Shown here one piece after another: positions 6,001 to 12,000 of a stretch of 64,000 nt of DNA. The DNA lies in contig CM074516.1 of the NCBI GenBank assembly GCA_037379345.1, positions 45,731,626-45,795,625 of the forward strand, read 5' to 3'. A program made the position numbers. How positions within the stretch are numbered: position 1 is the first letter of the stretch; each line of letters opens with the position of its first letter. The stretch is from Perna viridis (Eukaryota).

Positions 6001-9000
6001 TGGACTGAAAGAAACTAACAATTGATGAAATAATTTTTATGACATTGCCTTTGACATCTTTTTGAAGTTGAAGACTAACTTCTTGTTATAAATTTTGCCT
6101 TTAAAATGCTAAACATGAACCAAGTGAGTAATTCAGGCTTCTGGGTGCCTCTAGTGTTTCCATTAGGGTCAGCTACTGTATGTGGGTTTTTGGTTAGTGT
6201 CTTTTAGTTTGTAATTTTTATGTATATTTCAGTTAAGGTACTGTTAAAGATCAGCTTTTTCCATTGAATTGTATATTGTCAGTACATTTGTACACATGTA
6301 CAATAAATGATTTATATATTTATATATATCTGTTAGTAGTGTGAAGCTAAGCATCAGTATTATGTCACCTTATTTTCTTGCTGTAATTACAGCGGTAGAA
6401 GATATTTTACAACAATCGGGAACATCTGTTGACATGGTTCTATCACTGACCCAGCTTCTTAATGAGAGTAAAAGGTACTTAATGTTGTCATTTTTGAAGT
6501 TCTAATGGCTTTGAATAATAAACAGAATTGAGAAATTTTTTTTGTTTTTGTTTTTTATTGTTTTTAGTATATTTAAATTCTTATCTTATTTATATGGCAC
6601 ATTGTAGTTTAAAACCAAAAAGATATGGACATTATAATTTGAAAAAAATCTCTTGTGACACGAATAACTGCTAAACTATTTTTGTATTGTATCCTGAAAT
6701 ATCATTTTATGAGATTACTTTCTACTCTGAATTTGCAGTTATGGCTAACCATATACCTACACGAAGAAGTATCAGAATTTCTTGTAATGTAAAATCAGTT
6801 TATTTTTGTTTTGTGGCTCAGACTTTTTTGAACAGGTTTTTACGTGTGTTTAATGGTGTTGTATTTTTTCCACAGTGGCCAGATTAAAAAGGGGGAGGGC
6901 TGTGATCACACAAAGTACTTTAACCAGCACCATGTTTTTTTGTGCTTGTCCCAAGTCTGGAATTTCTGAGCTCTCTATGTCTTGTTATTTTTTCACTTTC
7001 AGTTAACTTTTTGGGGTTTGCTGCAGCCTGCCATGTTGTTTGAGGTTTCCTGGCCATTTATTGAAGACCCATGGGTGGCCTTGAGCTCTCATTTTTCATT
7101 CCTGTGGGGATATTATCTCTTCCACATATTCACCATAGTCATTCTTGTTATATTAATTAGGAATATTTTCCAGATATGAAGTCTCTAAAGAAGTTTTGGT
7201 CCATTCTTTGACAAAGTTTGATAGCAGTCCAGACCTTGGGAAACTGAAGACCACTCAACTAGAACTATTGTTACAGTCCAAACAAGCCGAGGCAGCCAAA
7301 CAGCTTGTAGAACAGAGTATCATTGGTCAATATAAGGAATTTGATGGATTTAAAATTAAATTGGCAGAGGACCAGTTTCCTCTATTAACTATACAAATTT
7401 AATATGTAATATAATTAGTAATAAAGATCATTGGTAAATAAAGTTTATAGTGTTTCAATAACTCACATTTTGAATTAATATGTTGTAAACATTATCATAC
7501 AAAGAAAATGAAAATAATATTCATTTACAGCTTTGAAACCAATATCACAATATTAAATGCATTTATACAAATGAAAGATGAAGTCCTTTAAGGTAGACTA
7601 CATGATATAAAACTCATATTAGATTATTGATGTCAAACACTAAGTTCTTTAATAAATGTCCATTACATTTTTAAACTGTTTTGATATTCAAATTTTAAAT
7701 GATGTGACTGTAACATAAAATTCAAAATATTAATTTTTTTACTTTTTCCAGATCACAACACTGGACAACCATTAGACAAAGATGTTCTTAAAAGATTTCA
7801 TGTTCTGTTATGGGAAAAGGCAGGAGAGGAATTTGAGGTATACATATGTACTTGAAAAGTGCAAAGATAGATGTACAGTTGTCTCCCCTGAAGTCATTAT
7901 GATGTTAAATCCAAACATAATTGAGAACTCTAGAAAGTCCAGTAACCCACTGTTAATATCATTATTCAGCAATCAAAATTAGATCATTTCTGCAAGAATG
8001 ATAATGGCACCACCAGGGGAATTGTCAATGGCTTCATCACTTTTATGTTCATATGTCTTTAGTATCTTCAGTCCTGCATTCTTCATTGCATCTAGTACAT
8101 CATACTTGGTCACAGTCATGTCTTTGAAGATTTCATTTCCCACAGGATAAATTGCCCCATTAAGTAATTCAGCAAATACAAGTTTTCCTCCTTGTCTCAA
8201 CAGTGATGTCATGTTTTTCATGGCCTTTTGGTATTCATCTAAAGTTTTACATGCTGCTTCTAAACATTGACATGTACTGATCACGTCCAGATCTTTATAT
8301 TCTGTTTCAGCCATGGGATTTGTATGGTGAACATCACATGGCAGTATTCTTTTTATTTTATTTCTTAAGTCTTCCTCTTTCTTTAACCAATCTGATCTGA
8401 AATCAAAGCTGTATATTTTCAGTTTATCAATTTTAGAAAGGAATGTAAGTGAAAACTATTTTGGATAAAGTAATTTGATGAATTTAGATGAATTAAGGTG
8501 ACAAATACACTATCAAGAGTTATAGGACTATCTATTACCAAAAAAAAAGTGAGGTACAGGCTTGTTATGTAGCGGTACTGTGAAAATGCTTTAATATGTG
8601 GATGCAAATTTTCGTAGATTAGGGAAGAAACACAAATTTGTTGATTCTTGAATTCATGGTTTTGAAGTTTTCAGTATACATATCTGTGACAATTTTCTTT
8701 TCGTTGGCAACCCAATATTGTGGTTTGACCTACCCACAAAAACCACGAACAATAATACTTCACAGTACTTTATTGCATCTGTTCAACATACTACACAATC
8801 CAGCTTGTGCTAGATTTTATGTGCTTGCCTACAAGAAGGCAATGCATACTCTGAAAACCTGTGCTTAGATGAGAAGTGGTAAGTACATGTGTGACGCTTC
8901 CAGTGATGTTCATCAACAAAGTTCATGTGCTGCTCTCTGACCATCTAGTTTGTATTTAATAAAGTCATGAGAGATTAAAATGATATAAAACTCAATTTAC

Positions 9001-12000
9001 TTACTCATTACCATCAAGTTTACTGAAGAATTTAAAGAAAGGTGTCCAGTCATGAGCCTCTGTGTCTTTCTGTAGCCACTTCTCCTGCATTTCTCTGTTA
9101 AGTTGGCAAACATCAGTCAAGATAATCTCCTCAAACTGTGCTACAGCTGGGATAATAGTATGAAGACTAGGTCCTGTACCTATATCTAATAGTCTATGAC
9201 CTTTAACTTCACCTGTTAAAATAGAAATCTTATATTAATTAAGATAATTTAACGACCTCAGAGATCGTTTTAATATTCCCTGAATTAGTTCTGTCTCATA
9301 ATAGTTGTATGGTAATGAATGGAAATCTCACTTGGTTCAACTGGTCAATTTTTTGATGTATGATTTTTCCTGATCTGTGTGGCATGTTCAATCTACTAAA
9401 ACAACTTATTGTATAATTTCTTGATCGGTGTCATCCTGGTTGGCCCACTTTTAATTACAGATATAATTAAACATAAGGGGTTAAGGGGTCACTTGATTAT
9501 TGTAAATTTCAATTTTAATCAGCAACTACAATCCATTGCTACATGATATTTGCCATGTACAATTTCAGTTAGAGATCTTATACTGTACTAATTGATTTCA
9601 AATCAATGTTGAGATTGTAAATAGTATGAAGTCTAAAAAAATGATATTTCTTGTAATGAATTTGAAGAGGAGAAATTCTGATTATTACATTACTTGGCAT
9701 GTCGTGTTTTGAAGTCCTGTCTCAGATACAGTTCACATCCTAACTACTATGAGAGTAGTTTTTGATACTTTTATCTAACTATCAAAATACTATCAACTTA
9801 ACAACTTACCAGATGAATATATTGTGTTTAATGTGTCCAAAAGAAAAATCAGATATTTTTGAAATTCAGGAAATGGATGTTGTTCAATTTGTTGATAAAA
9901 AGTTGACAAATATAATTTAGGGTTGAAATATGTCTGAAAGTCATATCCCTGACGAATCTGTTCTTCCATACTTTCTTCTGAAATTTACAAATAATAATCT
10001 GTAAGTTGTACCTGTAGAACTATACCAAAAGGATGTTTGGATGGTTTTACCCCAGACAGTAGGTGTGACACAAAAAGAAAAAGTATATGTAGGGTTCATT
10101 TCATAATAATTATTTTCTGCTTTAAGTCATGGGTTACTAGAAATTGTTGAAAAAAATATTTATGCTATGAAATGGTTAAAACCAGAGGAGTCCTAAAATC
10201 TGACAAAAATGACCGAACATGAGCAGCAATTATCCTTAGTGTTATGAATTCCATGTTTTTGAATTAAGCAGTATTTTATGTTAACTAATGAATCCAAGTT
10301 TGCAAGAGATTTTCCTCATATAGGATGTAAATGGTTATGTCCCCTTCCTACCGGAAATCCTTGAGGTGCCCCTGGCTTTTGTGTCGGTTATTGCTCAAAC
10401 AAAATCTTCTTGGGATGTACATACTTTTTTTGTTTTGTAAATTTGTGTTTTTATCCAACCTATGCATAAAATAAAGTGATAAATATGCTGTACAGAACAT
10501 AATAGTCCGTGAGTTTTTTTTCATTGAATGCATTCTATAATTGTATTTCTCTGGTAATTTTAGTAGAGTTTAACAATATTGATATAAGCCAGCTTTGTTT
10601 AATAAATTTTGCTTTAGAGTGATAAATAATACCACTGTACTAGTACAGATATAAGTGTTCTGTAGTTTGATAGAATTATGAACCAGTTTACAATGATTTC
10701 CTTGGATAAAAAAGTTATCCTTACCTCTGACCTCTGCCTGTATAGCTTTATAATACTTTATGTGAACTTGAAGTATACTGACTTATATGATCTTAAATTA
10801 TCGGTTTGTTGACCACTTAGGTATGTGGAATTTGTTTGTCTTGACCAAGTGACTTCACTTTACGATAATCAATATAAGTTAGTGGAATTACCCTTCAACT
10901 TGTAATGAATTTGCAAATGTATCAAGCTTTCCTGAAGAAATCAATGATAATTGTATAGAATGAAGAGAAAATGTCAATCACCATTTTGATTATGTAATCT
11001 GGCATGGGCTTGTGAAAACTAATAAATTTTTCAGGTGCATTTCTTTGAAATTACATCTTATTGTTTAAATAAAATGTATAAATTTATATTTTTCAGAGTA
11101 AAGACTACCAGTCCTCCCTTGATTGGTACAACTATTCCCTGAGTTTATATGAAGTTCAGTCTGGAGATAAAAACTTGGCCAAATTACATAGGAACAGAGC
11201 TAACTGTTACATTAATCTACAGATGAATGTCAAGGTTAGGTCATTGCTGTTTAAATTGATTTATTTAAACACTTCAAGACAAGGAGTTAGAGAAATTTTG
11301 GATAATTTTTAAAGTAGTTTTGATCTCCTTTAAAAAAAAAAAAAAACACACAAAGAAATTGACCTGTTCTCCCTACACGTATGAAATATTTACTATGTTT
11401 ATGTTGTCCTCTCAGGCTGATGATGTGCTACATGAAGCAGAGAAGTATGATCCAGAATCTGTACACACCCAGTTCACCATGTATAAACTAGCTTTGGCTC
11501 AGTCTGATCTAGAAAAAGGTTTGATTCTGAAATATCAAATACCTAAATCTGTTACATATTATATAACTTTAAACTGTCAGTTAAAATACATGTAGTTTAT
11601 AATGCGAGTTAATGAGATCAGATAATTTTGTTAACTTCATAAAAGGGCTAGTGACATCATATAAAGTCAACAAAAATAGAAAAAAAAATACACATGTTTA
11701 TATTTATGAAACCATGATACAACATTCACACAGATGGATTCAGAGATCTTAAAAGGAGTCCAGAGGAGTATCAGAAAAAAAATGGGGATTTCAGGCTACT
11801 ATTTGTTCATATGTGTTTAAATTTTGTCCAAAACAAAATACTTCAATAAAAAAGGGGGTTTTCTGGCCCCTGGATCCATTCATAGTGATTATGTTTATTT
11901 AGACAACAAAGGATTGTGGAGTCAGTCAACTGCTTAAAGAGAGATAACTCTGTTTGAAACAGAATTAATTGATGCTGTCAATCGTAATCTTATTGTTATC

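What the first reader, a model, noticed from the sequence alone, without database searches (positions are those of the whole stretch)
7838..11096. Intact N-methyltransferase gene nested antisense inside an intron of the meiotic gene TEX11
Seen: a complete 261-aa NNMT/INMT/PNMT-family CDS with its own two GT-AG introns fills most of a 3.26-kb TEX11 intron. It retains introns, so it is not a processed retrocopy. Known: vertebrate NNMT, INMT and PNMT are not TEX11-nested. Inference: a DNA-level duplicate or translocation settled in a germline-restricted host, which may allow mutually exclusive soma/germline expression or transcriptional interference.
Basis: partly seen in the sequence, partly recalled or inferred. 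Interest (0 to 1): 0.65.

Follow-up and report, generated by a model that had tools for sequence, protein, structure and literature searches.

The report
Methyltransferase gene nested in TEX11-like intron
An intact three-exon gene for a small-molecule methyltransferase of the NNMT/INMT/PNMT family sits backwards inside an intron of a TEX11/ZIP4-like meiosis gene, which is a real but ordinary gene-within-a-gene arrangement.

Summary
On the minus strand, three exons (9969-9810, 9212-9005, 8396-7979) give a 786-nt reading frame: 261 codons plus a stop, with two canonical GT-AG introns. Searched one exon at a time, they match Pfam PF01234 (NNMT_PNMT_TEMT) in order along the profile: positions 5-46, 54-117 and 126-242 of 261, with E = 0.012, 1.3e-15 and 2.2e-29. 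The best solved relative is human INMT, followed by NNMT and PNMT.

The gene lies between plus-strand exons ending at 7837 and starting at 11097. Upstream plus-strand exons match the SPO22/ZIP4 domain in order. Splice phases agree across this intron and the next three junctions.

The host is therefore a TEX11-like gene, and the methyltransferase coding sequence is nested antisense within it.

The substrate cannot be named. How the gene arrived and any soma/germline interplay are untested. The 3' UTR may run antisense into host exon 7752-7837.

Nested genes are common, so this is a new member of a known kind and of low interest. The spliced protein was never joined, so there is no full-length search, tree or fold.

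The parts
9810..9969 (-). Methyltransferase coding exon 1 (ATG 9969-9967; 160 nt; ends in phase 1)
   Evidence: PF01234 profile positions 5-46, E=0.012, 15.2 bits, below the 25-bit cut-off. Weak collinear hit to INMT 2a14 residues 7-46, E=0.83. In-frame stop five codons upstream of the ATG. Donor CTG|GTAAGT.
9213..9809 (-). Methyltransferase intron 1 (597 nt, GT-AG)
9005..9212 (-). Methyltransferase coding exon 2 (208 nt; phase 1 in, phase 2 out); carries SAM motif I, LLDIGTGPS
   Evidence: PF01234 profile positions 54-117, E=1.3e-15, 57.8 bits. INMT 2a14 E=3.7e-14, NNMT 5xvq 2.3e-13, PNMT 1hnn 1.1e-10.
8397..9004 (-). Methyltransferase intron 2 (608 nt, GT-AG)
   Evidence: Donor TGA|GTAAGT and acceptor TTTCAG|. 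This choice restores the spacing to INMT 2a14.
7979..8396 (-). Methyltransferase coding exon 3 with stop TAA at 7981-7979 (418 nt)
   Evidence: PF01234 profile positions 126-242, E=2.2e-29, 102.9 bits. INMT 2a14 E=4.8e-18, NNMT 2i62 3.4e-17, PNMT 1hnn 2.8e-13. Second-longest open frame of the window.
7838..11096 (+). Host (TEX11/ZIP4-like) intron that holds the methyltransferase coding sequence (3259 nt, GT-AG, phase 0)
7752..7837 (+). Host exon just upstream (phase 1 in, phase 0 out), at the end of the SPO22 domain
   Evidence: PF08631 profile positions 230-258 of 274, E=0.07-0.08, below the cut-off. Acceptor with 14 of 15 pyrimidines.
11097..11234 (+). Host exon just downstream (phase 0 in, phase 0 out), TPR-like
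   Evidence: Weak TPR_2, TPR_12 and TPR_1 hits, E=0.01-0.06. Acceptor and donor AAG|GTTAGG.
2674..2811 (+). Host exon with the strongest SPO22 match; also a clear TPR
   Evidence: ORF 2560-2862: PF08631 profile positions 33-79, E=7.2e-9, 35.9 bits, above the 27.5-bit cut-off. Consensus-TPR chains in the PDB match at E=2.1e-9.
3402..3497 (+). Host exon continuing the SPO22 domain
   Evidence: ORF 3354-3503: PF08631 profile positions 80-112, E=5.5e-4. AG acceptor at 3400-3401 and donor GCA|GTGAGT.
6393..6474 (+). Candidate host exon (phase 1 in, phase 2 out)
   Evidence: Open frame plus splice sites only; no Pfam hit.
7174..7316 (+). Candidate host exon (phase 2 in, phase 1 out; the donor could instead be at 7325)
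   Evidence: Open frame, splice sites read by eye, and phases that fit both neighbours; no Pfam hit.
11416..11518 (+). Candidate host exon (phase 0 in, phase 1 out)
   Evidence: no Pfam hit
12644..12747 (+). Candidate host exon (phase 1 in, phase 0 out)
   Evidence: Acceptor; donor GAG|GTATTG read by eye; no Pfam hit.
15074..15201 (+). Candidate host exon (phase 0 in, phase 2 out)
   Evidence: only a weak LRR_14 hit, E=0.027.

Best explanation
The feature is a functional-looking, single-copy, three-exon gene for a class I SAM-dependent small-molecule methyltransferase of the NNMT/INMT/PNMT (PF01234) family. It would be transcribed from the minus strand, and its coding sequence lies wholly inside one 3.26-kb phase-0 intron of a plus-strand TEX11/ZIP4/SPO22-like meiotic gene. 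The expected enzyme mechanism is inferred from the family: it binds S-adenosylmethionine through motif I (LLDIGTGPS), the conserved Asp after strand 2 and the CDV motif, and transfers the methyl group to a nitrogen (or sulphur) of a small substrate that cannot be named from sequence. The nesting itself is the common host/nested arrangement. Any effect on the host would come from convergent transcription, and that effect is possible but not shown. Shown here: exon structure, family membership, conserved cofactor motifs, and position relative to the host exons. Inferred: expression, enzyme activity, continuity of the host transcript across the intron, and any interference.
For: The 786-nt frame of 261 aa has canonical GT-AG introns. 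Exon-by-exon PF01234 hits are collinear and leave no gap in the profile: positions 5-46, 54-117 and 126-242 of 261. Exon-by-exon PDB hits go to INMT, NNMT and PNMT: 18 of 18 listed sequences are of this family for exon 3, and likewise 18 of 18 for exon 2. By my count of the printed alignments to INMT 2a14, identity is about 35% for exon 3 and about 44% for exon 2. Aligned conserved positions include DIGxGP, the Asp of 'ilTDv', the Asn of 'NRE', DWTP, CDV and 'C..AC'. The size and exon count match human INMT (263 aa, 792-bp ORF, three exons), whose gene is described as structurally similar to the NNMT and PNMT genes (PMC11987180, passage). The chance of such a frame staying open is about 4e-8. 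For the host, SPO22 hits are collinear in 3 of the 10 plus-strand frames, one of them above the Pfam cut-off. Splice phases agree at junctions 7837/11097, 11234/11416, 11518/12644 and 12747/15074. A cloned bivalve Tex11 has 930 aa with TPRs at 178-211, 414-447 and 455-488 (PMC9449974), which fits a TPR-like exon directly after the SPO22 domain.
Against: There is no transcript evidence for either gene. Exon 1 is below the Pfam cut-off on its own (15.2 against 25 bits), and in the PDB search it ranks behind chance transportin hits. The middle of the SPO22 profile (positions 113-229) was not found: 0 of 10 frames in 3500-6400 matched, and frames 6311-6502 and 7157-7399 gave nothing. Downstream of the intron the host exons have only weak TPR hits. 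The seven further downstream frames gave no SPO22 or TPR hit; the only rows were chance-level matches to LRR_14 (E=0.027) and TFIID-31kDa (E=0.072). Two splice sites of the host chain (7316 and 12747) were picked by eye. Of the positions I recall as nicotinamide-binding in human NNMT, the residues aligned here are Glu, Gly, Tyr and Asp rather than Asp, Ser, Tyr and Ser (alignment; the roles of these residues are recalled). No AATAAA or ATTAAA lies between the stop codon and the host exon, so strict intron nesting of the whole transcript is uncertain.
Confidence: 0.82

Rival explanations
1. The methyltransferase copy is a young, unexpressed DNA-level duplicate (an unprocessed pseudogene in the making) that is still intact only because it is recent.
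For: There is no expression evidence. No canonical poly(A) signal lies in the 141 nt after the stop; of 14 hexamers tested only AATAAT at 7966 is present. Nested genes typically arise by insertion of short young duplicates into long introns (PMC5174743, abstract).
Against: All 262 codons are open in a 31-33% G+C sequence where stops occur at 0.063 per codon. All four splice sites are canonical. The cofactor motifs are conserved. No parental copy is in the window, and identity to the vertebrate enzymes is at the usual deep-homologue level rather than showing signs of decay.
Confidence: 0.1
2. The plus-strand exons on the two sides belong to two different genes: an SPO22-domain gene ending near 7852 and a separate TPR gene starting downstream. 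The methyltransferase would then be intergenic rather than nested.
For: The SPO22 profile is nearly finished (position 258 of 274) at exon 7752-7837. If unspliced, the frame stops five codons after 7837. Donor GAG|GTATAC scored only 3 of 7 by my own count with the crude score, which did not list it. Downstream exons have no SPO22 hit.
Against: Exon 11097-11234 starts at a good acceptor, and nothing marks it as a first exon. Splice phases agree across this and the next three junctions. Known TEX11 proteins extend far beyond the domain: 930 aa in Hyriopsis cumingii, with TPRs at 414-447 and 455-488 (PMC9449974).
Confidence: 0.06
3. The gene pair is a partial antisense overlap rather than a clean nesting. 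The methyltransferase mRNA would run through host exon 7752-7837 to a signal at 7743 (AGTAAA) or 7653 (ATTAAA), giving an exon-overlapping natural antisense pair.
For: Only 141 nt separate the stop codon (7979) from the host exon end (7837). No AATAAA or ATTAAA lies there. The first signals lie beyond the exon.
Against: AATAAT at 7966 or another variant signal could serve, and poly(A) signal usage in this organism is unknown. This reading is compatible with the best explanation and is a refinement of it.
Confidence: 0.35

Closest known systems
Human indolethylamine N-methyltransferase (INMT; PDB 2a14)
   Same: It is the best solved relative for exon 2 (E=3.7e-14) and exon 3 (E=4.8e-18), collinear over chain residues 55-117 and 124-251. 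Size is nearly the same (263 against 261 aa), and the gene has three exons (PMC11987180).
   Different: Identity is only about 35-45% by my count of the printed alignments. According to PMC10244343 (passage) the INMT/NNMT/PNMT clade arose within vertebrates, so if the window is from an invertebrate this gene is an outgroup and not an INMT orthologue. The substrate is unknown.
Nicotinamide N-methyltransferase (NNMT; PDB 2iip, 2i62, 5xvq and others)
   Same: Same fold family. SAM motifs are conserved. The acidic residue and the Tyr aligned with the positions I recall as D197 and Y204 are kept as Glu and Tyr (alignment; numbering recalled).
   Different: The positions aligned with the recalled S201 and S213 are Gly and Asp. 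Nicotinamide as substrate is therefore not supported.
Phenylethanolamine N-methyltransferase (PNMT; PDB 1hnn, 1yz3)
   Same: Same family, with weaker hits (E=2.8e-13 for exon 3 and 1.1e-10 for exon 2).
   Different: PNMT is reported as vertebrate-only (PMC10244343). The exon-3 alignment spans four more residues in PNMT (113 query residues against 117 chain residues).
Host/nested (intronic) gene pairs of animals
   Same: A short gene sits on the opposite strand inside a host intron. This is described as the commonest form of protein-coding overlap and as usually arising from short young duplicates inserted into long introns (PMC5174743, abstract). Intronic genes are about 6% of Drosophila melanogaster genes (PMC3786989, abstract start in the listing).
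   Different: This particular pair (PF01234 methyltransferase within TEX11-like) was not found in print. TEX11 with 'nested gene' returned 0 papers. The host intron here is short (3.26 kb), and the nested coding span takes 61% of it.
TEX11 / ZIP4 / SPO22 meiotic crossover proteins (for example Hyriopsis cumingii Tex11)
   Same: The SPO22 domain plus TPR-like repeats are spread over many small exons. The bivalve protein has 930 aa and is expressed more highly in testis (PMC9449974).
   Different: The full host model was not completed. The 5' end, several middle exons and the stretch around the N gap are unresolved.

Membership tests
NNMT/PNMT/TEMT family (Pfam PF01234) | Significant match along the whole family profile | tested here: met
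   Searched exon by exon: profile positions 5-46 (E=0.012, below the cut-off), 54-117 (E=1.3e-15) and 126-242 (E=2.2e-29) of 261, collinear. The joined protein was not searched.
NNMT/PNMT/TEMT family (Pfam PF01234) | Class I SAM-binding motifs: motif I DIGxGP, the acidic residue after strand 2, and the CDV adenine contact | tested here: met
   LLDIGTGPS, ilTDv and pCDV align with the same residues of INMT and NNMT. That these motifs contact SAM is established knowledge of the family, recalled here.
NNMT/PNMT/TEMT family (Pfam PF01234) | Three-coding-exon gene of about 260-265 codons | tested here: met
   Three exons and 261 codons, against human INMT with three exons and 263 aa, described as similar to the NNMT and PNMT genes (PMC11987180). 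Whether the intron positions are the same was not tested.
NNMT/PNMT/TEMT family (Pfam PF01234) | SAM-dependent methyl transfer to a small molecule | not testable with these tools
   Requires an enzyme assay.
Nicotinamide N-methyltransferase proper (orthologue of vertebrate NNMT) | Placement inside the NNMT clade in a tree | not tested
PMC10244343 places NNMT, INMT and PNMT as vertebrate-only duplicates.
Nicotinamide N-methyltransferase proper (orthologue of vertebrate NNMT) | Nicotinamide-contacting residues (recalled as D197, S201, Y204 and S213 of the human enzyme) | tested here: inconclusive
   The aligned residues are E, G, Y and D (alignment). The list of contact residues is recalled and comes from no call.
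TEX11 / ZIP4 / SPO22 (host gene) | SPO22/ZIP4-like domain (PF08631) | tested here: met
   Frame 2560-2862 scores 35.9 bits against a 27.5-bit cut-off (profile positions 33-79). Collinear weaker hits are 3354-3503 (80-112, E=5.5e-4) and 7703-7852 (230-258, E=0.08). Profile positions 113-229 were not found.
TEX11 / ZIP4 / SPO22 (host gene) | One transcript running from the SPO22 exons across 7838-11096 into the TPR-like C-terminal exons | tested here: inconclusive
   Splice phases agree at four successive junctions and the TPR hits are weak. There are no cDNA data.
TEX11 / ZIP4 / SPO22 (host gene) | Meiotic or germline expression | not testable with these tools
   The only support is by analogy: Hyriopsis cumingii Tex11 is higher in testis (PMC9449974).
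Nested (intronic) gene pair | The whole inner gene, UTRs included, lies within one host intron | tested here: inconclusive
   The coding sequence 7979-9969 is inside 7838-11096. The 3' end is unknown, and no canonical poly(A) signal precedes the host exon.

The most novel reading that the evidence does not exclude
The pairing is not accidental. The methyltransferase mRNA reads antisense through TEX11-like exon 7752-7837, so somatic expression of the enzyme and meiotic expression of the host exclude each other. In addition, the enzyme, which lies outside the vertebrate NNMT/INMT/PNMT clade and has a different substrate pocket, makes an invertebrate-specific N-methylated metabolite such as a pyridine-carboxylate betaine (homarine or trigonelline type). 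My one search found no paper title or abstract start that names an animal enzyme for that reaction (listing only, 8 papers held the terms and 7 were listed, none read).
Probability: 0.05. Interest if true: 0.5.

Novelty: new member of a known kind. Interest (0 to 1): 0.15.

Why it matters
If taken at face value, the finding adds one well-formed host/nested pair to a genome annotation and one invertebrate member to a methyltransferase family whose named enzymes are vertebrate inventions. It would matter more only under two conditions. The first is that the pairing is conserved across species or that the two transcripts interfere, which would give a simple natural case for studying antisense control of a meiotic gene. 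The second is that the enzyme's substrate proves to be a metabolite whose synthesis in marine invertebrates is unassigned. None of this is shown here.

Tried and rejected
1. My first splice model for intron 2 (donor at 9011, acceptor at 8392; 257 aa) was dropped. The GTAAGT donor at 9004 with the acceptor at 8397 restores the six-residue spacing to INMT 2a14 and gives 261 aa.

3. A PDB search with the best SPO22 exon found only designed or generic TPR proteins and no TEX11 or ZIP4 structure. Downstream host exons could therefore not be tied to TEX11 through solved structures.

4. A search for the missing middle of the SPO22 domain gave 0 of 10 frames in 3500-6400 with an SPO22 hit.

5. Mobile-element carriage was checked. 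Only four short chance-like repeats of 20-26 nt lie in 7000-12000, with no terminal repeats around the gene.

6. A scan of bacterial and archaeal genomes with exon 3 matched 175 pattern stretches, and none was confirmed by tblastn. There is no sign of a prokaryotic origin or contamination.

7. Rfam and tRNA scans of the window found nothing.

8. Pfam on the 60 longest frames of 31.9-64 kb found no family at E<=0.001.

9. Literature: TEX11 with 'nested gene' gave 0 papers. NNMT with 'bivalve' gave 2 papers and NNMT with 'mollus' gave 4, all irrelevant by title. One search was badly posed with min_terms 2 and returned only general mollusc papers. The NNMT/NamPT/NADA search gave only reviews, and no paper held the term Lophotrochozoa. 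PMC8533529 passages said only that invertebrates recycle nicotinamide through nicotinamidase.

10. Folding single exons was considered and not done, because half a Rossmann fold would add nothing to the sequence evidence.

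
Full report
**What is there**

Read on the minus strand, the region holds three open stretches with canonical splice sites:
- Exon 1 is 9969-9810. Its ATG is at 9969, with an in-frame stop five codons upstream.
- Intron 1 is 597 nt, bounded by CTG|GTAAGT and TTTTAACAG|.
- Exon 2 is 9212-9005.
- Intron 2 is 608 nt, bounded by TGA|GTAAGT and GATTTCAG|.
- Exon 3 is 8396-7979 and ends in TAA.

The lengths 160 + 208 + 418 sum to 786 nt, which is 261 codons plus a stop. I first chose a neighbouring donor and acceptor pair for intron 2, which gave 257 aa. 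The alignments to the INMT chain 2a14 leave six residues between the end of exon 2 and the start of exon 3 (chain residues 117 and 124). Only the 261-aa model supplies those six residues.

**Is it more than chance?**

The window has 31-33% G+C here, and 6.3% of codons in all frames are stops. A run of 262 open codons has a probability of about 4e-8. The exon-3 frame is the second longest of 8040 frames in the window, and the longest lies in a tandem repeat.

**What the inner gene encodes**

The joined protein was not made, so there is no full-length E-value, no tree and no fold.

Against Pfam, the three exons hit one family, PF01234 (NNMT_PNMT_TEMT), in order and without leaving profile positions unaccounted for:

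| Exon | Profile positions (of 261) | E-value |
|---|---|---|
| 1 | 5-46 | 0.012 |
| 2 | 54-117 | 1.3e-15 |
| 3 | 126-242 | 2.2e-29 |

Against the PDB, all 18 listed sequences for exon 3 and all 18 for exon 2 are INMT, NNMT or PNMT. Human INMT (2a14) is best, at 4.8e-18 and 3.7e-14. By my count of the printed alignments, identity is about 35% for exon 3 and about 44% for exon 2.

Exon 1 alone is weak. INMT appears only at E=0.83, behind chance transportin hits. Its position, strand, splice phase and the Pfam hit nonetheless fit.

The cofactor motifs align with those of the solved enzymes: DIGxGP, the Asp after strand 2, DWTP and CDV. The residues that I recall as lining the nicotinamide pocket of human NNMT are only partly kept. 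The aligned residues are Glu, Gly, Tyr and Asp; the roles of those positions are recalled, not tested. The protein is therefore best called an NNMT/INMT/PNMT-family methyltransferase of unknown substrate.

A published analysis places NNMT, INMT and PNMT as duplicates that arose within vertebrates, while the wider family occurs across Metazoa (PMC10244343, passages). If the window is from an invertebrate, this gene is an outgroup to all three named enzymes.

The gene's size and three-exon layout match human INMT (263 aa, three exons), which is said to resemble the NNMT and PNMT genes (PMC11987180, passage). Whether the introns sit at the same positions was not tested.

**The host gene**

On the plus strand, frames at 2560-2862, 3354-3503 and 7703-7852 match the SPO22/ZIP4 domain PF08631 in order:

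| Frame | Profile positions (of 274) | E-value | Note |
|---|---|---|---|
| 2560-2862 | 33-79 | 7.2e-9 | 35.9 bits, above the 27.5-bit cut-off |
| 3354-3503 | 80-112 | 5.5e-4 | |
| 7703-7852 | 230-258 | 0.08 | |

These are 3 of the 10 frames. None of the 10 frames or the 10 hit SPO22, so the middle of the domain was not found at exon level.

The exon ending at 7837 (GAG|GTATAC, phase 0) is followed by an exon starting at 11097 (TTTTTCAG|AGT, phase 0). That exon has weak TPR hits. Splice phases also agree at the next three junctions (11234/11416, 11518/12644, 12747/15074) and at the two junctions upstream (6474/7174, 7316/7752). Two of those sites (7316 and 12747) were chosen by eye.

A cloned bivalve Tex11 has 930 aa with TPRs at 178-211, 414-447 and 455-488, and higher expression in testis (PMC9449974, abstract and passages). 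That layout fits a TPR-like exon directly after the SPO22 domain.

I conclude that the host is a TEX11/ZIP4-like gene and very probably continues across 7838-11096. Only cDNA can prove this.

**How nested is it?**

The coding span 7979-9969 takes 61% of the 3259-nt intron. About 1.1 kb remains upstream of the ATG for a promoter and 5' UTR, but only 141 nt remain after the stop. That 141-nt stretch has no AATAAA or ATTAAA. Of 14 hexamers tested, only AATAAT (7966) is present. AGTAAA (7743) and ATTAAA (7653) lie beyond host exon 7752-7837. The mRNA may therefore overlap that host exon in antisense. This is inference only.

**Origin**

The gene keeps its introns, so it is not a processed retrocopy.
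- No second copy is in the window.
- No terminal or flanking repeats mark a transposon.
- A scan of bacterial and archaeal genomes with exon 3 confirmed nothing (175 pattern matches, 0 relatives).

Duplication or translocation at the DNA level is the default reading, and the literature describes it as the usual route to nesting (PMC5174743, abstract). It was not tested here. The protein collections, the metagenome and viral collections and the Atlas were closed, and no eukaryote genomes were on hand. Synteny, paralogs, the age of the nesting and selection therefore stayed unchecked. Supplementary files of the papers were not opened. The orthogroup tables of PMC10244343 might show mollusc members of the family.

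**Comparison and verdict**

Nested genes on the opposite strand of a host intron are the commonest protein-coding overlap in eukaryotes (PMC5174743, abstract). They make up about 6% of Drosophila genes (PMC3786989, abstract start in the listing). This specific pair was not found in the held library:
- TEX11 with 'nested gene': 0 papers.
- NNMT with 'bivalve': 2 papers, irrelevant by title.
- NNMT with 'mollus': 4 papers, irrelevant by title.

The case is a new member of a known kind, with low interest unless the pairing proves conserved, the transcripts interfere, or the enzyme has an unusual substrate.

The source organism was not identified. I do not take the window for human. The N run at 17590-17735 was left as it is.

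Noticed in passing
window 29536-30998, minus strand: A decayed hAT-type transposon lies inside a later intron of the TEX11-like gene. Frame 29577-29804 matches Dimer_Tnp_hAT (PF05699) at E=1.1e-14. The four adjacent frames (29856-30140, 30151-30447, 30484-30699, 30786-30998) are separated by stops or frame changes and gave no significant Pfam hit.
   Followed up: partly
window 7838-7978 and 7653-7743, minus strand: No AATAAA or ATTAAA lies in the 141 nt after the methyltransferase stop codon, only AATAAT at 7966. AGTAAA at 7743 and ATTAAA at 7653 lie beyond host exon 7752-7837, so the 3' UTR may overlap that exon in antisense.
   Followed up: partly
window 9970-9985, minus strand: An acceptor-like site (aatttcag) ends 8 nt upstream of the ATG. 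The first coding exon may therefore be preceded by a non-coding 5' exon and a 5' UTR intron within the remaining 1.1 kb.
   Followed up: no
window 1276-1590, 19083-19238, 24816-25069, 26258-27613, 28404-28986, 49590-51131, 58875-59762, 62630-63367: There are many minisatellite arrays. The largest are 29 nt x 47 copies (26258-27613) and 28 nt x 55 copies (49590-51131). Several lie in introns of the TEX11-like gene and account for some of the longest open frames.
   Followed up: no
window 17590-17735: A run of N (146 nt) lies inside the TEX11-like gene span. It was left untouched, and host exons between 15201 and 21911 were not resolved.
   Followed up: no
window 31900-64000: No Pfam family matched at E<=0.001 in the 60 longest open frames on both strands (tandem arrays excluded), and no tRNA or Rfam match was found anywhere in the window. 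The half of the window beyond the TEX11-like gene has no recognisable gene at this level.
   Followed up: partly
window 42146-42623, minus strand: Three overlapping or adjacent frames looked to me like the tail of a non-LTR reverse transcriptase, but the two of them sent to Pfam (42208-42453 and 42429-42623) gave no hit at E<=0.1, and none of the three matched at E<=0.001.
   Followed up: partly
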